DNA of 8,887 nt, from the IMG/VR virus record IMGVR_UViG_2778261251_000018, positions 1-8,887 of that record; one strand, 5' to 3'. The notes below the pieces were generated by a model. The model was not told where the DNA came from. It searched no databases and saw only the letters and a program-made list of their open reading frames with translations. Made by a program: the position numbers and the translations under genes. Origin of the DNA: a virus. Lineage: Duplodnaviria; Heunggongvirae; Uroviricota; Caudoviricetes. Below are positions 1,753-8,887 of the stretch, piece by piece; positions within the stretch are counted from its first letter, which is position 1; every line of letters begins with the position of its first letter.

Positions 1753-2345
1753 GATGTGTAATCCAGCAGCTGCGCGGCAGCATTTTCAGCGGCCTCCTGA
1801 GAGGCAAACGTGCGGAACAAAATATAATTCCACAGCACATCTAAAACGGCTGAATACAGTTGACCGAACTCAAGATCGTCCATCGCAGCAAACGAGATTG
1901 AACGAGGTACGCGCATCAAACTGCCATCCGGCATCTGATGAACGTCATAAAACCCAGCTTCCATAATCGCCCAGGCGCGAAACGCCTCGAACGACTTCAC
2001 CGCACTGATATTCCCCGCGCGCTTTTCCGACTCATCGAGAAGATACTGATCAGCCAGCTCTGCCATGACATCACCGTGTCCACCGTAATACGCCAGTAAC
2101 TTAACGTAGCCATGGACCAGTTCGCGCTCCGCAGGAGAAATAGCCCCTCCGGACGGATGCCAGTAATCAAAGCCCAGGTTTAGAAGTGAGAAAAATTTAC
2201 GATGAAACGCGGGATTACGCGCCTGTTTGAAATCTGCATACACAACAGCATCTGGTTTGACTCGTTCAGTCAACCAGCGTTGCGTGTCTGGTGTCGCGGG
2301 TATTAGCGAACCGCCGGATACCCTGATAAATGAATGCTGCGCCAT
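1749..2345 (-). CDS. nin-region phage protein, DUF1367-like, 198 aa
   Basis: ORF-track ORF. GGAG Shine-Dalgarno 8 nt upstream of the ATG at 2345. Translationally coupled to the DUF1364 gene. The DUF1367 label comes from remembered co-occurrence with DUF1364 in enterobacterial prophages and needs an HMM check. Confidence 0.6.
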   Translation of the reverse strand: MAQHSFIRVSGGSLIPATPDTQRWLTERVKPDAVVYADFKQARNPAFHRKFFSLLNLGFDYWHPSGGAISPAERELVHGYVKLLAYYGGHGDVMAELADQYLLDESEKRAGNISAVKSFEAFRAWAIMEAGFYDVHQMPDGSLMRVPRSISFAAMDDLEFGQLYSAVLDVLWNYILFRTFASQEAAENAAAQLLDYTS

Positions 2346-2374
2346 GTTTAACTCCAGGTGGCGCGGCAGTGCTC

Positions 2375-2406
2375 AGAAAATGGTGCCGGGTGTTCAGACC
2401 AGCACC
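2375..2406 (-). terminator. Intrinsic terminator between the small SOS-box gene and the DUF1367-DUF1364-Q operon (nin-region tR2-like)
   Basis: Minus-strand RNA GGUGCUGG-UCUGAACAC-CCGGCACC followed by AUUUUCU. 8-bp stem (7 Watson-Crick plus 1 G-U), 9-nt loop. The hairpin is better on the minus strand than the plus strand (G-U versus C-A). Confidence 0.45.
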
Positions 2407-2422
2407 AGTATTATACCGCGTA

Positions 2423-2602
2423 TTACGCGTCAGGGGGTGTAATAGTATATCCAGCTGTTTCTGCCAACTCGAGAAACGCCAGCAGGCTGGCAATCCGCTC
2501 GTCGTCGCTGAGGACGCGTACAATCACTACGCGCCCCTCTTCTCGTTTGATTACAGCCCGGCACGTATCCGGTAATTTGCTGATCGCCTCGTGTGTGTTC
2601 AT
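2423..2602 (-). CDS. Small hypothetical protein, 59 aa (MNTHEAISKLPDTCRAVIKREEGRVVIVRVLSDDERIASLLAFLELAETAGYTITPPDA), candidate SOS-induced regulator
   Basis: Not in the ORF track (below 60 aa); translated by hand. ATG at 2602-2600, TAA at 2425-2423. GGGGGA Shine-Dalgarno 5-10 nt upstream. Sits between a LexA-box promoter and a terminator, forming a self-contained transcription unit. Confidence 0.5.
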   Translation of the reverse strand: MNTHEAISKLPDTCRAVIKREEGRVVIVRVLSDDERIASLLAFLELAETAGYTITPPDA

Positions 2603-2620
2603 ATTTCCCCCTGACAGAAA

Positions 2621-2640
2621 CCCTGTATATATATACAGTA
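2621..2640. promoter_or_regulatory. LexA (SOS) box, perfect match to the CTGT-N8-ACAG consensus
   Basis: ccCTGTATATATATACAGta; core at 2623-2638 is CTGT + (AT)4 + ACAG, matching the E. coli LexA consensus TACTGTATATATATACAGTA. Overlaps the -10 of the minus-strand promoter. Confidence 0.75.
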
Positions 2641-2658
2641 TTTTTTATCGTATGTCAT
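2630..2658 (-). promoter_or_regulatory. Sigma70-like promoter for the 59-aa gene, with the -10 inside the LexA box
   Basis: Minus strand: -35 ATGACA (plus 2653-2658), 17-bp spacer, -10 TATATA (plus 2630-2635). Predicted start ~20 nt upstream of the ATG at 2602. Confidence 0.45.
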
Positions 2659-2715
2659 AACATCAAATGCAATGGGGGAATAATGAGCAATTATATTCAC
2701 CGCGTGAATTTGATT

Positions 2716-2746
2716 AAACGGTTTATTCCCGGAAAAAACGGTTTAT
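2716..2746. repeat. Tandem direct repeat of AAACGGTTTAT, two copies 20 bp apart
   Basis: Copies at 2716-2726 and 2736-2746. Each copy is internally near-palindromic (AAAC-G-GTTT). Located ~60-90 bp upstream of the LexA-box promoter and just past the stop of the 210-aa gene. Confidence 0.4.
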
Positions 2747-2751
2747 GGTTA

Positions 2752-3384
2752 TTATTTTTCATTTCCATAAACATGGGTTAACCATTTTCTAATAGTTGAC
2801 TCCGCCGGAACGTCAGCATATTTTTTTACGAGAATTTCGTTAATACGTGCCACCGCCGCACTAACCCGTGCGTGGGGATTATTTGTGAAAAAAACCTCTG
2901 CAATCTGTAATGCCTCGTCTTTTAGCCTGTGCTGTGGCCTCCCTCCGCCCTTTGTTCCCAGATAACGCGCCAGTTGTTTGAACCGGTACGCCACGATTAG
3001 TGGCCGCATCATCATATTGAAAAAATCACGTGCATCGTCGTCCTCTCCTCGCGCTATCAACAGCGCAAAAAACAGGTACGGTATTGTATATACGTCAGGG
3101 GAAATCATTACGCGCCTGCACACAGTCGGCGCCAGTGCGATCAGTGTGTCTGCCAGCGCGTCGCTCTCTCCTCCACGTTTGTAATACCGGTAGAGTGGTC
3201 CTAAGTCGAGTTCACTGGTATTGAATCCAGTCACAGCCTCACGAACCTCGTCTGCCAGCGCGTTGTAAATCGCCCCTGTACGTTTTGTGTAGAGTCTCCG
3301 GGTTGCCCCCCGGTTATCCAGCGCCCGCAGCATGTCAAGTCGGGTGACAAACGTTTCAGGCCAGTCCTCATAGAATGATCTCAT
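2752..3384 (-). CDS. Hypothetical protein, 210 aa; unknown-function accessory (moron-like) gene
   Basis: ORF-track ORF 2752..3420, trimmed to the ATG at 3384 (MRSFYEDWPE...), which has a GAGGTG Shine-Dalgarno ~7 nt upstream. The 12 extra N-terminal codons have no ribosome-binding site. No family recognised. Confidence 0.7.
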   Translation of the reverse strand: MRSFYEDWPETFVTRLDMLRALDNRGATRRLYTKRTGAIYNALADEVREAVTGFNTSELDLGPLYRYYKRGGESDALADTLIALAPTVCRRVMISPDVYTIPYLFFALLIARGEDDDARDFFNMMMRPLIVAYRFKQLARYLGTKGGGRPQHRLKDEALQIAEVFFTNNPHARVSAAVARINEILVKKYADVPAESTIRKWLTHVYGNEK

Positions 3385-3625
3385 ATCCACCTCGAATAAT
3401 AAAAACAGCACTATTTGCACAATTTATTATTCGTTGTCGCATCGCAGAGTTCTATAAAAAGAAAACCCGCCGAGTCAGGGTTTTGTTATGACTCGTGAAA
3501 CAACCATCCAAGTTTTTAGACTGAACGGTGATACTTGCAAATATTTGAAAATATGGGCTGGGCCCCTATCTTATGATGTGCCTGGTAATTTATATTGTTG
3601 GGTCTTTATATCATGAGGAATCACT

Positions 3626-3859
3626 ATGGGTACGTTAGGCAACCAGCCGTGCAGAAGTCGTTATGAGTTCGATGATTTTAATTTAGCCAATCGGGCTGAG
3701 GCTCTTACTAAGTTAGCAAAAGAAACTGATGTATCGGTAGATACTTTAATCAAACTTGAAATTGCTATGCAACTGAATCGGCTCAACTCCATCCTTATCG
3801 AAAACGGTGACAAGATGGATGAGAACCTGGCAGGTATTGGCGAGATACTGCAGAAGTGA
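3626..3859 (+). CDS. Hypothetical small protein, 77 aa; only convincing plus-strand gene
   Basis: ORF-track ORF. GAGGAA Shine-Dalgarno 7 nt upstream. Followed 5 nt after the stop by a GC-rich hairpin. Divergent from the 210-aa gene across a 240-bp AT-rich intergenic region. Confidence 0.6.
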   Translation: MGTLGNQPCRSRYEFDDFNLANRAEALTKLAKETDVSVDTLIKLEIAMQLNRLNSILIENGDKMDENLAGIGEILQK

Positions 3860-3863
3860 GAAT

Positions 3864-3883
3864 AGCCCCTCTTTTGAGGGGCT
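3864..3883 (+). terminator. Stem-loop terminator candidate after the 77-aa gene
   Basis: AGCCCCTC-tttt-GAGGGGCT: perfect 8-bp GC-rich stem with a 4-nt loop. The downstream U-tract is weak (gcaccTTTaaT) and a second hairpin (GCACCTT-taat-AAGGTGC, 3881-3898) abuts it. Confidence 0.4.
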
Positions 3884-3996
3884 GCACCTTTAATAAGGTG
3901 CGATATTCTTCACGTTTCACCGTCACCTGGGTGCTCAGTACCGTTGAAAACGGTATTCAGAAACTGGTAATCATGTCAATCACCTGGAAAGGCAAG

Positions 3997-4033
3997 CCCC
4001 GCGAGATGGTGAGGCTACCGGAGCATCGCGGGG
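3997..4033 (-). terminator. Hairpin just past the stop of the 226-aa membrane-protein gene
   Basis: CCCCGCGA ... TCGCGGGG: 8-bp GC-rich arms with a 21-nt loop, starting 4 nt after the stop at 4037. The following sequence is only moderately U-rich, so the call is weak. Confidence 0.3.
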
Positions 4034-4036
4034 ATA

Positions 4037-4717
4037 CTATTCGGCACTTGTGTTAGGTTGCTGAGCGTTCTCGTTTTTGTCTTTATTAAATTGAATGTTT
4101 GGCTGTTGGAATAACGATCCCTGCAGATTTTTAAACGCTCCATCCACAATGTCGTCTCTGGATTTTTGTGGCAATGCCCAAGTACAAATACCATAGACAA
4201 TGACAGCGAAGGTTATTGTGGCGAAAATGCTGGCAAACCCATTCCAGTACCATCCTAACGAGCGGGAAACACGCCCACGTTTGCGTGCCTGGGTGATTTC
4301 AACCATGCGATGAAAATTGAGAATAGCATCCTCTCCAGCCTTCCTTAGCTCGCTCTCACGTGATGCTTTCATAGCCTGTATTTCTGCTTTCAGCCGTTCT
4401 ATTTCAACATCCTGCAAGTTAGCACCGGCTAACTGTGCATCGTACTCAAGCCGGATATCAGCATCTATCTGGTCTGTTAAGTTTGTGACGATGGCTTCTG
4501 CTTTTTCTTTGTAAGACTCAATTCGGCCTGGCGAGTTAACTGTCTGCTCATGAAAGATCTTCAGTTGGGCGTTAATATCTTCTTCTGTATATTCGCCACT
4601 ACTACGCAACTTCTCTGCATATTCATTTTTGTCGTGCTTATAGAGCGCGTAAGCCAAAAAGCCAGATGTGTCATCTTTCCCTGTAACTAATTGAGTAAAA
4701 ACCCAGAGCTTTTCCAT
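4037..4717 (-). CDS. Coiled-coil protein with a single C-terminal transmembrane helix, 226 aa; candidate membrane-anchored exclusion or abortive-infection effector
   Basis: ORF-track ORF 4037..4765, trimmed to the ATG at 4717 (MEKLWVFTQL...). The upstream 16 codons start at TTG and run through the terminator hairpin. Predicted helical heptad-like region (res ~75-130), hydrophobic stretch LGWYWNGFASIFATITFAVIVYGICTWAL (res ~155-182), Q/N-rich tail. No family recognised. Confidence 0.7.
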   Translation of the reverse strand: MEKLWVFTQLVTGKDDTSGFLAYALYKHDKNEYAEKLRSSGEYTEEDINAQLKIFHEQTVNSPGRIESYKEKAEAIVTNLTDQIDADIRLEYDAQLAGANLQDVEIERLKAEIQAMKASRESELRKAGEDAILNFHRMVEITQARKRGRVSRSLGWYWNGFASIFATITFAVIVYGICTWALPQKSRDDIVDGAFKNLQGSLFQQPNIQFNKDKNENAQQPNTSAE

Positions 4718-4730
4718 TTGGTTTTTCCGC

Positions 4731-4758
4731 AATAAAAAAGCGCCAGAAAAAGGCGCTT
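4731..4758 (-). terminator. Strong rho-independent terminator between the 64-aa gene and the 226-aa gene
   Basis: Minus-strand RNA AAGCGCC-UUUUUCU-GGCGCUU followed by UUUUAUU. 7-bp stem (4738-4744 with 4752-4758), 7-nt loop. Begins ~19 nt after the stop of the 64-aa gene and ends 14 nt before the ATG of the 226-aa gene. Confidence 0.7.
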
Positions 4759-4776
4759 TAATCAATTAAAGTAAAA

Positions 4777-5329: not shown

Positions 5330-5878
5330 TCAAGGGTGCCACATACTCCCGCGAGTAAGAGTCAAACAGGATAGTAGTACATTGCTGGCATGTGAAAAAT
5401 TAGCTTCCTGGTCTTCGAGGTTGTAAGACCATTTTTCTCCATGGAAAAGATTATGCCGTAACCTAAAAATCACTTTGAACACAAAGCTGATTTTATCTTC
5501 AATTGTTGGAGACTGTATCTGAAGTAGCGTAACAAAGCGTTCTCTGATTGCATTCTTAACATACTCAGGCGGGGCCAGTTTATTGAAGCGGTAATCGCTA
5601 TCAGGGCTGTCTCGATAGCGTCGTATAAAATAACGATAGCAATCATCTATGGTCTGACTGTCCATGCCGTTATGCACAACCAGTTCCTGTGCCAGTGCGT
5701 CAGTTCTACCAAGGCCAGCAGCCATTGATGTTAACTTTGATTCAGCCAGGGAAAAATAAATCATAAAGCGACATAAGTTATCATATTGATTCTGATGAAA
5801 TGGTTGTGCTTGTAACAGATCTGCCAATTCGGCGACTACTGGGCGTGGGGCGTCTTCTACGATACTCACTTCCGACAT
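5330..5878 (-). CDS. Hypothetical protein with a C-terminal R-x4-H motif (HEPN-like, putative RNase), 182 aa
   Basis: ORF-track ORF. AAGGGAG Shine-Dalgarno ~6 nt upstream. Motif FRLRHNLFHGEKW (res ~139-151) contains R-H-N-L-F-H, matching the HEPN R-x(4-6)-H signature with a polar residue after the Arg. The fold is not verified. Confidence 0.6.
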   Translation of the reverse strand: MSEVSIVEDAPRPVVAELADLLQAQPFHQNQYDNLCRFMIYFSLAESKLTSMAAGLGRTDALAQELVVHNGMDSQTIDDCYRYFIRRYRDSPDSDYRFNKLAPPEYVKNAIRERFVTLLQIQSPTIEDKISFVFKVIFRLRHNLFHGEKWSYNLEDQEANFSHASNVLLSCLTLTRGSMWHP

Positions 5879-6357
5879 AAAAACTCCCTTATGTTATGGA
5901 GAGGGTGAAAATAACTGTATCTGTCAGGAGATTCTTTCTCGGTTGGTCATTGAGCGCGCTCCTATAAAGCATATGTTATACCCAATATTACAAAAACCAG
6001 GTACATATGCTTGTTCTATTTAACCTGCGTCCTCTGCAAGATAATGCGACACTATCAGCAAACGTTACTGTTGTACATGAGCGGTACTTAAACTGAGGTA
6101 TTCGGCCTCGTGTTGGTCGTGACCAAATACCTTTTTAAACGCAAGTAACTCTCTCTATGAAACAGACTTTAGTCGATTTTCGAACACCTTAGTCGCAGGG
6201 TCTTGATAAATTAACAATGTATTGAAAACATATAATTATCCCATCAACTCCAACGTAATACATCACAAAAAAATCTATTTTTTGTTCTAACGTCAATACG
6301 TGTTCTAAAAACAATATTTCACTAAGAATGAGAGGATTCAGAGTACATTAAAATGAT

Positions 6358-6388
6358 GGGTTGTTTATTCAATTCTTATAAACAACCC
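6358..6388 (-). terminator. Hairpin terminator after the DUF262 gene
   Basis: Perfect inverted repeat GGGTTGTTTAT-(9 nt)-ATAAACAACCC, starting 12 nt past the stop at 6400 and followed on the minus strand by AUCAUUUUAAU. Confidence 0.5.
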
Positions 6389-6399
6389 ACTTTCGTCAT

Positions 6400-7458
6400 T
6401 TAATCATGTAAAGAGCAAAATTCTTTCAAAATATCAAATCTACGCTGTCTGTTATGACTCTTCTTTGAACCCTCTTGGCTGAGGAATCTATATTCCTCAA
6501 CCAGTGGATGGGGGTTATCTTGTTCATTTAACTCATAAATATTAAAAAAATCCTCGAGCTTTGAACTAATAACATTCATATCAACAAGCTTAGATTTACT
6601 AAGCTGTAAATAATAGTATGCCAGCACAAATATAAAATACAAATGGCCTTTTTTCTTTACAACTGATTCTAATACTTGTTTATTGTTGATAATTTGAGAT
6701 ATGATCCTTAACACTTCGTTAAAGATAATTCTGTCCTCAGTCGCCTCAGGGTAATTCTCATTGTATTGATCATACACTCGATTAATTGATTTTTGTGTAT
6801 TATCCTGCTCAATACCCATTCGTAAGAAAATCAATAATGTGCTGATGAATTGAATGTCTTGCATCCGACGGATATCTGACTGAGTAAATATCTTATAATT
6901 ATCCCAAAATTCATTTTGTGCAATTTCTTCGGCTAATCTTAAAAACTCGCCATTAAATTCAGCATTACGAAGTTCTTGAGGATTTAACGTAGTATTTGTT
7001 CTATTTAGACGTAAAAATAACTTTGCAATCTCATCATATCTCAATGATTCATTAATAAATCTGGATGAGAATTGGTATCGCCAAAAATCACGTTTGTTAT
7101 CTGCCGACAATTCTGAAAAAATTTTCCCACTATAGTCGGCTTCTTTATCATCTATAGCTGCTTTGCTTAACTTAAACTCATCATTTAAATATCGCTGGAT
7201 TGTGGTTAGCCTTTGCTGTCCATCTACAATTGAATATTTAGTATCTCCAGTGTCAGGATCAGTATTATTTGCCCAAAGGTAAATCTCAGGGATTGGGTAG
7301 CCAATTAATATTGTCTCAATTAAGGCCACTTGGTCTTTTTGCTGCCAGATATATTTTCTCTGATATGAATTATCAACTGTAATAACACCTGATTTCAAAT
7401 TATCCGTCAACCATTTAATGTCTTTCGATTCAACTTTAATTAGATCAATAGCTCTCAT
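6400..7458 (-). CDS. DUF262 (ParB/Srx-fold, GmrS-like N-terminal NTPase domain) protein, 352 aa, without a recognisable DUF1524/HNH nuclease module
   Basis: ORF-track ORF. DUF262 hallmark motifs read directly: YQRKYIW (res 32-38) and DGQQR (res 79-83, nt 7210-7224). AGGA Shine-Dalgarno 9 nt upstream. ATG overlaps the NTase stop (ATGA). The C-terminal ~200 aa is low-complexity K/N/Y-rich, with no His-Me finger seen by eye. Confidence 0.85.
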   Translation of the reverse strand: MRAIDLIKVESKDIKWLTDNLKSGVITVDNSYQRKYIWQQKDQVALIETILIGYPIPEIYLWANNTDPDTGDTKYSIVDGQQRLTTIQRYLNDEFKLSKAAIDDKEADYSGKIFSELSADNKRDFWRYQFSSRFINESLRYDEIAKLFLRLNRTNTTLNPQELRNAEFNGEFLRLAEEIAQNEFWDNYKIFTQSDIRRMQDIQFISTLLIFLRMGIEQDNTQKSINRVYDQYNENYPEATEDRIIFNEVLRIISQIINNKQVLESVVKKKGHLYFIFVLAYYYLQLSKSKLVDMNVISSKLEDFFNIYELNEQDNPHPLVEEYRFLSQEGSKKSHNRQRRFDILKEFCSLHD

Positions 7459-8045
7459 ATCAATTGTCCTTGTAACTTATCTTTTAGACTATTCAACCCA
7501 GCTATGTGATAGCGTTCAACGGACTCCCAAGAGTCATAAATTCTGTAGTTGATGTCGTTAGGTATTCCAAAAATAGTTTGAATGTCTTTTTTTAATGGTT
7601 CAACGTTACGGGACCATTTATTAAAAAAATCGACTCTAATATCTAACTCCTTCAATGACACGAATCCTTTGAAAATATTTTTAGCTACAGGAGCATATAC
7701 AGGCAAATAATTCTTTGATTGTAATTCAATAAATGCCATCCAGGAAGATTTATAAATTCTGTCGGATACTAAAACCAAGTCTATATCTGACTCATCGTTA
7801 AATGTTCGATAATTTTTATCAGGGCTCAAGCTGAATCCCATCTTAGCACTTCCAACAATTGCAATATTATTTACATGAATTTCAAGCTTCTTAGACATAT
7901 ATAGCTTAAACTCATCATAATCTTTAGCAAAGGTTATTGATTTTTTTTGTTCCCGAAAATACCAAATGTCATGTCCTAAAAGGTATCGTTGGTAGACATC
8001 GCGGATATCGTCGGATAGTAGCTTTTCCTTAAATTCATTTAACAT
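7455..8045 (-). CDS. Minimal nucleotidyltransferase (Pol-beta superfamily, MNT/SMODS-like), ~196 aa
   Basis: ORF-track ORF 7455..8069 starts at TTG; the first ATG is at 8045 (MLNEFKEKLL...). Neither start has a strong ribosome-binding site. NTase signature read directly: IVGSAKMG (GS motif, nt ~7848-7856), then NDESDIDLVLV (acidic D-x-D pair, nt 7779-7787), then LDIRVD as a likely third acidic residue. Confidence 0.8.
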   Translation of the reverse strand: MLNEFKEKLLSDDIRDVYQRYLLGHDIWYFREQKKSITFAKDYDEFKLYMSKKLEIHVNNIAIVGSAKMGFSLSPDKNYRTFNDESDIDLVLVSDRIYKSSWMAFIELQSKNYLPVYAPVAKNIFKGFVSLKELDIRVDFFNKWSRNVEPLKKDIQTIFGIPNDINYRIYDSWESVERYHIAGLNSLKDKLQGQLI

Positions 8046-8096
8046 TTTCTTGTGCGCCCCTATTGACAAGAACTGTAGATTAGCTGTTACATTTCC

Positions 8097-8125
8097 ATAG
8101 TATGTTTTTATTGCGTCATTAACAA
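8097..8125 (-). promoter_or_regulatory. Candidate sigma70 promoter for the NTase-DUF262 operon
   Basis: Minus strand: -35 TTGTTA (plus 8120-8125), 17-bp spacer, -10 TACTAT (plus 8097-8102), ~50 nt upstream of the ATG at 8045. Only 4 of 6 matches in each hexamer. Confidence 0.25.
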
Positions 8126-8887
8126 GTAATTAAATGCTTTCACCAGATTTAATTTCGCTGATACACTTGTTTTTTTCATGGTTATGACTGATTTTTTAGT
8201 TCATCGCAGTCATTGCGGAGCACCCTGCTAATGAGGTATCACTACATTTAATGCTGGCAATCATTAATAAATAATTTTTCATGTTATTTTACTTGGTCGT
8301 TAACGTGATATCGGCCTCAGAACAATCACCAATAGACAATATATCTCATGCCGTTAATGGTCAAATCACAGCCCCCCTTCAGTAAGCTAATAGATGTCTG
8401 CTTACTGCCAGATAAAGTCATTGTTCTTATAGACAGGTAATAATCCCACATCGAAATTAAATATCTTCCTTTTACATTAGAAATAATTCCTCCAGGACAC
8501 TATCCATTGCCGGGCACAATCACTCGGGGTATAACGATATAAAATATGTTCATGATAGTGCAGGTTCGTATATTAAGTTCAGCAGCGAAAACATGCCTTA
8601 CAGGTTTCCAGTTTTGGGAGCGTCGTTACAGGATCCTGTGCATACCGTTCCCATCTGTTGAATTAAAGGTTTCACAGCCTTTGCCGATATCACCTTTTAC
8701 CTTGCCTGTGATGCGTTCAGTGCTCAGCGCTGAGAGATCCCCTCATAATTTCCCCAAAGCGTAACCATGTGTGAATAAATTTTGAGCTAGTAGGGTTGCA
8801 GCCACGAGTAAGTCTTCCCTTGTTATTGTGTAGCCAGAATGCCGCAAAACTTCCATGCCTAAGCGAACTGTTGAGAGTACGTTTCGA

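What the first reader, a model, noticed from the sequence alone, without database searches (positions are those of the whole stretch)
6400..7458. DUF262 protein lacks the usual HNH/DUF1524 nuclease partner; its C-terminal ~200 aa is uncharacterised
The DUF262 motifs occupy roughly the first 100-150 residues. The remainder (about res 150-352) is K/N/Y/I-rich, and I could not see a His-Me or HNH motif, or any adjacent DUF1524 gene. In GmrSD-like enzymes the nuclease is DUF1524, so the effector function here is either in a novel C-terminal domain or supplied by another protein.
Basis: partly seen in the sequence, partly recalled or inferred. Interest (0 to 1): 0.55.

Follow-up and report, generated by a model that had tools for sequence, protein, structure and literature searches.

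The report
DUF262 sensor paired with nucleotidyltransferase gene
The nuclease-less DUF262 protein in this E. coli prophage is one half of a strictly conserved two-gene cassette whose other half is an unannotated nucleotidyltransferase-like protein, which makes it a likely new variant of the known DUF262-based anti-phage systems.

Summary
ORF 6400-7458(-) encodes a 352-aa protein with an intact DUF262 domain (res 22-168). Its C-terminal ~185 aa has no HNH or DUF1524 match, is predicted all-helical, and has no DUF1524 gene nearby.

It overlaps the DUF262 start by ATGA and encodes a 196-aa protein with invariant GS...SDxD motifs. Its confident model (pLDDT 95) is closest, though weakly, to minimal nucleotidyltransferases.

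The pair is obligate. 48 of 48 testable genomic loci found with the DUF262 query carry the partner, and 85 of 86 found with the partner query carry the DUF262 gene. It occurs across several phyla and in viral contigs, often beside restriction-modification genes.

The helical C-domain always follows a DUF262 domain. Relatives carrying it pair instead with HEPN, SIR2-like or RelA/SpoT genes, or carry a fused HNH tail. I read it as the constant sensor scaffold, like the ParBDB or middle domain of NsnA, GmrSD and SspE, rather than the effector.

The most likely reading is a PD-T4-2/Menshen-like two-gene defence module whose effector is the nucleotidyltransferase-like protein. Neither defence nor enzyme activity has been tested. 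It is a new variant of a known kind, of moderate interest.

The parts
7455..8045 (-). Partner gene: 196-aa nucleotidyltransferase-fold protein (ATG at 8045; the ORF listing gives a 204-aa ORF from the upstream TTG at 8069). Publicly annotated 'hypothetical protein'.
7455..7458 (-). ATGA overlap: the partner's TGA stop lies inside the DUF262 ATG start, indicating translational coupling.
   Evidence: Read directly from the sequence. In 132 of 134 related loci the junction overlaps or has a gap of at most 11 nt (start codons were inferred).
6400..7458 (-). DUF262 gene (352 aa plus stop), the finding itself.
   Evidence: PADLOC NsnA 4.3e-41 over res 9-348 and PD-T4-2_A 2.5e-19 over res 22-312. phrog_2598 at 9.6e-42, full length.
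6955..7395 (-). ParB/Srx-like DUF262 NTPase domain (res 22-168) with intact QRxxxW, DGQQR and FxxxN motifs.
6403..6951 (-). All-helical C-terminal domain (res 170-352). It is the family-wide scaffold domain and is ParBDB/middle-domain-like. It contains no nuclease motif.
   Evidence: Helices only. No Pfam or PADLOC hit on its own. Invariant R197, R198, M199, D201, R213, Q222, N226, Y229, D230, N233, Y236, D242 and H272 within the subfamily. 251 clusters share it, and all 74 of the listed hits that are >=300 aa have it after a DUF262 domain. It lies between DUF262 and an HNH tail in at least 7 representative relatives.
6357..6389 (-). 12-bp hairpin directly after the DUF262 stop codon, a probable operon end.
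   Evidence: RNA fold dG -16.4 kcal/mol, z -3.66, 0 of 200 shuffles as stable, followed by AUCAUUUU. The consensus terminator scan missed it, probably because the 9-nt loop exceeds its 3-8 nt limit.
6300..8500 (.). Low-GC (31-35%) cargo island holding the two genes, inside a ~43-52% GC lambdoid prophage between the replication and nin/Q modules.
   Evidence: Composition profile. Annotated context in E. coli ETEC1738. Only 3 of 5426 complete E. coli genomes carry it; other prophages matching the flanks of this region carry different genes between them.

Best explanation
ORF 6400-7458 and the overlapping upstream ORF 7455-8045 form one two-gene cassette carried as cargo by a lambdoid prophage.

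The DUF262 protein consists of a ParB-like NTPase domain and a helical, probably DNA-binding, domain. It is the sensor or switch, in the role proposed for NsnA of Menshen and played by the DUF262 parts of GmrSD, BrxU and SspE. It has no catalytic killing domain of its own.

The output function comes from the co-translated 196-aa nucleotidyltransferase-fold protein. It occupies the slot that HEPN RNases, SIR2-like proteins, RelA/SpoT-like enzymes or a fused HNH nuclease fill in sister systems.

The proposed course is as follows. On infection the DUF262 protein binds phage DNA in an NTP-dependent way and releases or activates the nucleotidyltransferase. That enzyme nucleotidylylates a cellular or phage target (the precedent is MenT/AbiEii-type toxins acting on tRNA) and stops phage growth.

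Shown here: the domain content, the absence of a nuclease, the obligate linkage and co-inheritance of the two genes, the shared scaffold with swappable partners, and the mobile-element and restriction-modification neighbourhood.

Inferred: the defence function, DNA sensing, enzymatic activity of the partner, and the direction of control.

My confidence by layer is about 0.95 for the nuclease-less DUF262 + helical anatomy, 0.9 for the obligate two-gene module, 0.7 for anti-phage defence, and 0.45 for the nucleotidyltransferase being the effector.
For: - Domain content and absence of a nuclease.
- Partner fold and motifs.
- Linkage from the DUF262 side: every genomic locus with a DUF262 score of at least 280 bits and usable upstream DNA has the partner directly upstream on the same strand (48/48, plus L055). 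None of the 25 more distant DUF262 loci has it.
- Linkage from the partner side: 85 of 86 testable loci found with the partner have the DUF262 gene directly downstream, including 9 IMG/VR viral contigs.
- The junction overlaps or has a gap of at most 11 nt in 132 of 134 loci.
- Divergence of the two genes is correlated (rho 0.85, n=114).
- No third conserved gene was found.
- An HMM built from the C-domain alone hits the C-termini of partner-less relatives at 33-65 bits.
- Those relatives are each tightly linked to RelA_SpoT (Pfam 5e-19, 8 loci), HEPN with invariant Rx4H (7 loci, plus 5 loci whose DUF262 gave no C-domain hit), or SIR2-like (9e-5, 4 loci) genes.
- At least 7 representative clusters carry a fused HNH tail.
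- Neighbours include NaeI-type R-M with Vsr, type I R-M, Schlafen/AlbA_2, AIPR, integrases and prophage genes.
- In the window the pair is a low-GC island in a variable prophage slot.
- Full-length PADLOC hits to NsnA and PD-T4-2_A, both components of validated defence systems (PMC12065111, PMC9519451, PMC10952713).
Against: - No experiment exists for this pair, and neither protein hits a defence model as a pair. The partner has no PADLOC hit.
- The Pfam NTP_transf_2 hits are below threshold. The GS-to-DxD spacing (19-20 residues) is longer than the classical 9-13. A conserved third carboxylate is not evident (D171 is D/E in 26 of 30 members).
- The closest structural relatives (MNT of HEPN-MNT pairs) are antitoxins that modify their partner rather than toxins. 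The gene order here (NTase first, overlapping) is the same as in those pairs, which favours the rival reading.
Confidence: 0.5

Rival explanations
1. A toxin-antitoxin-like arrangement in the manner of HEPN-MNT (type VII TA). The nucleotidyltransferase-like protein is the regulator. It covalently nucleotidylylates (for example AMPylates a tyrosine of) the DUF262 protein to keep it inactive. The DUF262/helical protein is then the growth-arresting component, for example by NTP consumption or by clamping DNA.
For: The best structural matches of the partner are MNT antitoxins (HI0073, 8xeh_E, 1wot, 5yep). The gene order and overlap (NTase upstream, partner downstream) mirror mntA-hepT, as I recall the type VII TA literature. 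Several tyrosines are invariant in the C-domain of this subfamily (Y229, Y236; Y274, Y308 and Y323 near-invariant).
Confidence: 0.2
2. A signal-generating module. The nucleotidyltransferase synthesises a nucleotide or short oligonucleotide second messenger or decoy, as CD-NTases and the Hailong HalB enzyme do (recalled, not checked here). The DUF262/helical protein binds it or is regulated by it.
Against: No recognisable effector would remain in the two-gene unit, and no third conserved gene exists. There is no detectable relation to the RelA/SpoT partners (hhalign probability 0.1%). Similarity to CD-NTases is no better than to many unrelated folds.
Confidence: 0.1
3. The DUF262 protein is itself the nuclease, or is a restriction subunit linked to a neighbouring methyltransferase (an R-M-type or type IV system without a His-Me finger). 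The small partner would be only a specificity or assembly factor.
For: A PADLOC 'REase_II' model hits the N-terminal domain (5.3e-10). 14 of 50 related loci have a C5-methyltransferase within 3 kb, often 6-150 bp away. ParB-like domains have been called DNases in comparative-genomics literature (PMC3710099).
Against: Where checked by Pfam, those methyltransferases mostly come with their own NaeI endonuclease (9 loci) and Vsr (6-8 loci). The R-M system is therefore already complete and the pair is a neighbour. Most loci, including this window, have no adjacent methyltransferase. In characterised GmrSD, BrxU and SspE the DUF262 domain is an NTPase/sensor and cleavage resides in DUF1524 (PMC10952713). 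Invariant GS/DxD residues in the partner argue for catalysis rather than a structural role.
Confidence: 0.1
4. The cassette is not a defence system. It could be a phage-benefit function such as DNA modification or anti-restriction, or a ParB-like regulatory or partition function carried by mobile elements.
For: ParB/DUF262-like proteins also act in DNA-modification pathways: DndB (PMC12065111) and DpdB (recalled), with a weak DpdB hit at 0.009. The genes occur in phages and prophages.
Against: The closest profile matches over the full length are components of experimentally validated defence systems. Sister architectures carry abortive-infection effector domains. The neighbourhoods are enriched in R-M and other defence genes. 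No modification enzymes are co-conserved.
Confidence: 0.1

Closest known systems
PD-T4-2 (Vassallo et al. 2022; DUF262 protein A plus RiboL-PSP HEPN protein B)
   Same: A two-gene unit built on a short (~350-aa) DUF262 protein without DUF1524. The PD-T4-2_A profile matches res 22-312 (2.5e-19). Both are found in E. coli accessory DNA.
   Different: The second gene here is a nucleotidyltransferase-fold protein encoded upstream, rather than a HEPN RNase encoded downstream. It has no PD-T4-2_B hit. The true PD-T4-2-like loci in my sample (L075-L080, RiboL-PSP HEPN at 7e-22) have DUF262 proteins whose C-terminus is not hit by this family's C-domain model.
Menshen NsnA (NsnABC; Millman 2022; Li et al. 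2025, PMC12065111)
   Same: This is the best PADLOC match, end to end (res 9-348 against profile positions 48-379 of 385, 4.3e-41). The architecture is the same: ParB-DUF262 followed by a helical domain (ParBDB). The proposed sensor role is the same.
   Different: There is no NsnB ABC-ATPase and no NsnC effector in the window or in related loci. Sequence similarity in the C-domain is marginal (+17 bits; 1 of 46 segments hits NsnA).
GmrSD / BrxU / SspE (DUF262 + middle domain + DUF1524 His-Me nuclease)
   Different: The window protein stops after the helical domain. It has no DUF1524 or HNH in cis or in a neighbouring gene.
HEPN-MNT (HepT/MntA) type VII toxin-antitoxin pairs; minimal nucleotidyltransferases
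   Same: The partner's top structural matches are MNT proteins, and it carries a GS...DxD signature. It is a small protein encoded first in an overlapping two-gene operon.
Nucleotidyltransferase-fold toxins in abortive infection (AbiEii/MenT DUF1814; toxSAS RelA/SpoT such as CapRel)
   Same: This is a functional analogy only: NTase-fold enzymes used as growth-arresting effectors. A sister branch of this DUF262 family is linked to RelA_SpoT proteins (PADLOC PDC-S33).
   Different: No sequence relation was detected (hhalign probability 0.1% against the RelA/SpoT partners). The partner has no DUF1814 hit in Pfam.

Membership tests
GmrSD-type type IV restriction enzyme | N-terminal DUF262 domain with the DGQQR NTP-binding motif | tested here: met
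   Pfam GmrSD_N at 1e-24 over res 22-168. D79-G80-Q81-Q82-R83 are invariant.
GmrSD-type type IV restriction enzyme | DUF1524 His-Me finger nuclease, either in the same polypeptide or as an adjacent GmrD gene | tested here: not met
   No Pfam hit in res 170-352 at E<=10. The model is all-helical. No HNH pattern matches. No DUF1524 among the window ORFs scanned.
Menshen (NsnABC) | NsnA-like protein (ParB-DUF262 + ParBDB) | tested here: met
   PADLOC NsnA at 4.3e-41, covering res 9-348. Most of the score comes from the N-terminal domain: 122.6 of 139.4 bits.
Menshen (NsnABC) | Adjacent NsnB ABC-ATPase (AAA_15 + DUF3696) and NsnC effector | tested here: not met
   No such gene in the window. No conserved third gene in 50 related loci.
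PD-T4-2 | DUF262 component A | tested here: met
   PADLOC PD-T4-2_A at 2.5e-19, res 22-312.
PD-T4-2 | HEPN (RiboL-PSP) component B in the same operon | tested here: not met
   The operon partner has no HEPN or PD-T4-2_B hit. The 182-aa ORF 5330-5878 has an Rx4H-like string, but it lies ~520 nt away beyond a hairpin. It has no Pfam hit at E<=0.1 and hhalign probability 2% against HEPN partners.
ParBDB / GmrSD-M / SspE-M helical domain (Li et al. 2025) | All-alpha domain of about eight helices directly following the DUF262 domain | tested here: met
   AF2 shows helices only from 171 to 348 (11 DSSP helices, several short), with pLDDT mostly above 85.
ParBDB / GmrSD-M / SspE-M helical domain (Li et al. 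2025) | Detectable sequence or structural homology to NsnA-C, SspE-M or BrxU-M | tested here: inconclusive
ParBDB / GmrSD-M / SspE-M helical domain (Li et al. 2025) | DNA binding | not testable with these tools
   This needs EMSA or a similar assay. Conserved basic residues (R197, R198, R213, R337, R340) are compatible with it.
Pol-beta-type nucleotidyltransferase superfamily / MNT (partner protein) | hG[GS] ... D-x-D active-site signature | tested here: met
   G65, D87 and D89 are invariant and S66 is present in at least 90% of 30 homologs. The spacer is 19-20 residues, longer than the classical 9-13.
Pol-beta-type nucleotidyltransferase superfamily / MNT (partner protein) | NTase fold recognised by structure or profile comparison | tested here: inconclusive
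HEPN-MNT type VII toxin-antitoxin | HEPN toxin with an Rx4-6H motif as operon mate | tested here: not met
   The operon mate is a DUF262 protein. hhalign of its C-domain against HEPN partners gives probability 0.15%.

The most novel reading that the evidence does not exclude
The cassette is a previously undescribed anti-phage system. In it a ParB-like NTP-driven DNA sensor controls a new family of minimal nucleotidyltransferase, which acts either as an effector that nucleotidylylates a target (tRNA, protein or DNA ends) or as a signal-maker. More broadly, the ~350-aa 'DUF262 + helical domain' protein would be a universal plug-in sensor that evolution has combined with at least five different outputs: HEPN, SIR2, RelA/SpoT, HNH and this nucleotidyltransferase.
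Probability: 0.4. Interest if true: 0.7.

Novelty: new variant of a known kind. Interest (0 to 1): 0.55.

Why it matters
DUF262 proteins without DUF1524 (Menshen, PD-T4-2, Dazbog) are validated defence components whose mechanisms are still open.

This family offers a very small and very clean case: two genes, about 1.65 kb, strictly co-inherited, widespread, and present in E. coli prophages. It could be used to study how a ParB-like NTPase passes an infection signal to an unrelated output enzyme.

The partner is an unannotated protein family with a nucleotidyltransferase signature. If it is an effector, it adds a new toxin type to abortive-infection biology.

The sister pairings found along the way (RelA/SpoT, SIR2-like, HEPN, fused HNH) give a natural comparative series for testing the sensor-plus-swappable-effector idea. 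On the practical side, both genes are currently labelled 'DUF262 domain-containing protein' and 'hypothetical protein', and the defence-model library searched here (PADLOC-DB 2.0.0) has no model for the partner.

Tried and rejected
- **Diverged DUF1524/HNH in the C-terminus.** Rejected. No Pfam hit at E<=10, an all-helical model and no motif.
- **C-domain as a cryptic HEPN**, which would make this a HEPN-MNT pair. Rejected by hhalign (probability 0.15%).
- **Partner as a miniature RelA/SpoT enzyme** related to the partners of the sister clade. No support (hhalign probability 0.1%).
- **Neighbouring C5-methyltransferases as the cognate protection** of a DUF262 restriction enzyme. Weakened, because those loci also encode NaeI and Vsr, which already make a complete R-M system.
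- **Downstream 182-aa ORF (Rx4H-like string) as a PD-T4-2_B-type third component.** Not supported. It lies beyond a hairpin in different-GC DNA, is not conserved in related loci, and has no HEPN profile match.
- **PDB sequence searches.** Single sequences and family profiles found nothing for the partner or the C-domain.
- **Other negative searches.** The plasmid collection had no match. No Rfam family or tRNA gene occurs in the window. The promoter scan found fewer sites than the shuffles gave and the terminator scan found none; the repeat scan returned only short two-copy matches.

Full report
**Setting.** The window is part of a lambdoid prophage of Escherichia coli. Window bases 5900-8732 are 99.9% identical to the chromosome of strain ETEC1738. 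There the region lies between the replication module and the nin/Q/lysis module. Pfam recognises DUF1367, YbcO, antiterminator Q and a holin in the left half of the window. The target ORF and the ORF upstream of it sit in a 31-35% GC island (about 6300-8500) within 43-52% GC phage DNA. Only 3 of 5426 complete E. coli genomes carry this island. Other prophages that match the flanks of this region carry different genes between them. It is therefore accessory cargo in a variable prophage slot.

**Checking the observation.** The ORF lies at exactly 6400-7458 on the minus strand and encodes 352 aa. Pfam GmrSD_N/DUF262 covers residues 22-168 (E 1e-24). The QRxxxW, DGQQR and FxxxN motifs are invariant in 35 homologs. 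Residues 170-352, searched alone, give no Pfam hit at E<=10 and no PADLOC hit at E<=1. The AlphaFold2 model, built on a 35-sequence alignment (mean pLDDT 85), has only helices after residue 135, so a beta-beta-alpha His-Me finger is excluded. An HNH pattern that matches relatives does not match this protein. No DUF1524 gene occurs among the window's ORFs.

**Linkage of the two genes.**
- A scan of one genome per species with the DUF262 family returned 79 loci.
- Every locus whose DUF262 gene scores at least 280 bits against the family profile and has usable upstream DNA carries the partner directly upstream on the same strand (48 of 48, plus L055). None of the 25 more distant DUF262 loci has it.
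- The reverse scans with the partner family returned 80 metagenomic and 9 IMG/VR viral loci. Of these, 85 of 86 testable loci have the DUF262 gene directly downstream.
- The junction overlaps or has a gap of at most 11 nt in 132 of 134 loci (start codons inferred).
- The divergence of the two genes is correlated (Spearman 0.85, n=114).
- No third gene is conserved.
- A stable hairpin follows the DUF262 stop codon (dG -16.4, z -3.7).

The functional unit is thus a two-gene operon. It occurs in Gamma-, Beta- and Alphaproteobacteria, Bacteroidota, Bacillota and other groups.

**What the C-terminal domain is.** A search with residues 170-352 alone against 1.84 billion representative proteins found 251 clusters.
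- All 74 of the listed hits that are 300 aa or longer carry a DUF262 domain in front of the matched region. None of the 148 sequences retrieved exceeds 461 aa, so the domain was not seen in long GmrSD-like proteins.
- At least seven representative clusters carry a classical HNH tail (CxxC...DHxxP...GG...N...H..CN) after this domain. That tail has weak PDB matches to intron-maturase and Cas9 HNH domains. In those relatives the helical domain is literally a middle domain between sensor and nuclease.
- A profile built from the C-domain alone also hits the C-termini of the partner-less DUF262 proteins in my genome sample at 33-65 bits. Each of those is tightly linked to a different gene:
  - a RelA_SpoT protein (8 loci; Pfam 5e-19; PADLOC PDC-S33);
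  - a short HEPN protein with an invariant Rx4H motif (7 loci);
  - a SIR2-like protein (4 loci; 9e-5).
- A further group with RiboL-PSP HEPN partners (7e-22) corresponds to PD-T4-2, but the C-domain profile does not reach its DUF262 proteins.

The helical domain is therefore the constant part of a scaffold whose partner varies. This argues against its being the effector.

Li et al. 2025 (PMC12065111) describe an eight-helix 'ParBDB' domain after the DUF262 domain of NsnA. They equate it structurally with the middle domains of GmrSD and SspE and with DndB-C, and they propose DNA binding. My evidence that this C-domain belongs there is indirect:
- the NsnA and PD-T4-2_A profiles align end to end and gain 15-17 bits from the C-domain;
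- Foldseek aligns 462-544 columns to BrxU and SspE at low TM-score;
- only 1 of 46 C-domain segments hits NsnA on its own, and no PDB sequence match exists.

I file it as ParBDB-like, with membership not settled.

**Context.** Neighbours of the pair include C5-methyltransferases in 14 of 50 loci, mostly alphaproteobacterial and often within 150 bp. Where checked by Pfam, those loci mostly also encode NaeI endonuclease (9) and Vsr (6-8). The R-M system is therefore complete without the pair. Other neighbours are type I R-M subunits, Schlafen/AlbA_2, AIPR, PIN, integrases and prophage structural genes. This is a typical defence-island or mobile-element neighbourhood.

**Mechanism.** The best-supported reading is a PD-T4-2/Menshen-like system. 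The DUF262/helical protein senses phage DNA using NTP binding and hydrolysis, as shown for BrxU and SspE and proposed for NsnA (PMC10952713, PMC12065111). The nucleotidyltransferase-like partner is the output, occupying the position taken by HEPN, SIR2-like, RelA/SpoT or HNH in sister systems.

The anatomy, the linkage, the swappable-partner pattern and the context are shown. Defence, DNA sensing, catalysis by the partner and the direction of control are inferred.

The main rival is an HEPN-MNT-like logic in which the nucleotidyltransferase modifies and silences the DUF262 protein. The MNT-like structural matches and the gene order favour it. The lack of any toxic motif in the DUF262 protein and the absence of HEPN similarity (hhalign 0.15%) count against it. 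Signal synthesis, an intrinsic DUF262 nuclease and a non-defence role are less likely.

**Novelty.** Public records call the two proteins 'DUF262 domain-containing protein' and 'hypothetical protein'. PADLOC 2.0 has no model for the partner. Full-text searches found no paper describing a DUF262-nucleotidyltransferase pair. Li et al. do mention further unnamed DUF262-centred systems.

I rate it a new variant of a known kind, of moderate interest. It is small, widespread, sits in a tractable host, and has a clear set of decisive experiments. There is as yet no functional evidence, and the fold assignment for the key partner is weak.

Noticed in passing
window 5330-5878 (-): A 182-aa ORF downstream of the cassette contains 'FRLRHNLFHGEKW', an Rx4H string like the HEPN catalytic motif. 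It has no Pfam hit at E<=0.1, matches phrog_27260 (unknown function, 1.2e-9), and gives hhalign probability of only 2% against the HEPN partners of DUF262 relatives. It is separated from the DUF262 gene by ~520 nt and a hairpin, and was not seen as a conserved neighbour in related loci.
   Followed up: partly
L051, L052, L057, L058, L062, L065, L066, L073 (genes directly downstream of the DUF262 gene): A sister clade of DUF262+helical-domain proteins is tightly linked to 345-359-aa RelA_SpoT-domain proteins (Pfam 5e-19; PADLOC candidate PDC-S33). This looks like a sensor plus toxic alarmone-synthetase-like pair.
   Followed up: partly
L067, L070, L072, L074 (genes directly upstream of the DUF262 gene): Another sister clade is linked to ~350-aa SIR2_2-like proteins (9.4e-5). 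In three of these loci an NgoMIV-type restriction enzyme lies one gene further upstream.
   Followed up: partly
proteins P0308, P0312, P0320, P0332, P0345, P0349, P0381: Relatives of 405-427 aa (one, P0312, is a 261-aa sequence) carry a classical HNH motif after the same helical domain. This makes a miniature DUF262-middle-nuclease architecture distinct from DUF1524-type GmrSD. Other long relatives (P0313, P0328, P0340, P0376) instead end in Cys-rich, zinc-ribbon-like tails of unknown function.
   Followed up: partly
L018, L019, L033, L035, L036, L037, L038, L041, L046, L047, L048, L054 and L013, L016: In Alphaproteobacteria, some Clostridia and one Marinimicrobia MAG (L047), the NTase-DUF262 pair sits within a few hundred bases of a C5-methyltransferase. 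Pfam scans of the nearest neighbours also found NaeI-family endonucleases (9 loci) and Vsr genes (6-8 loci) in this set, which suggests that the pair travels with a complete R-M unit.
   Followed up: partly
window 8740-8887: The right end of the window is 99.3% identical to an IS10 end/transposase region annotated in phage CL707. The ETEC1738 match stops at window ~8732, and that genome has an IS3-family element further upstream. Insertion sequences therefore flank the cargo island in different strains.
   Followed up: no
window 8070-8740: About 650 nt upstream of the partner gene hold only one short mechanical ORF (8546-8764, +, 72 aa) and no convincing gene, Rfam family or tRNA. The promoter scan gave no more hits than the shuffles. 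The promoter and any regulator of the operon are unidentified.
   Followed up: partly
L081 (E. coli NZ_OZ040555) 1980-4244: Between flanks matching this region, another E. coli prophage carries an ImmA/IrrE metallopeptidase gene plus hypothetical genes, with an LprI-family gene nearby. The slot appears to be a hotspot for exchangeable cargo.
   Followed up: no
L091: This is the only locus found with the partner query in which the DUF262 gene is not adjacent (gap ~340 nt). It may be a decayed or rearranged copy.
   Followed up: no
window 4037-4765 (-): A 242-aa ORF with a charged, repetitive central region that looks coiled-coil-like and a hydrophobic segment near the C-terminus (judged by eye from the sequence). 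It matches phrog_25194 (unknown function, 2e-23) and has no Pfam or PADLOC hit. It is another uncharacterised prophage accessory gene.
   Followed up: no
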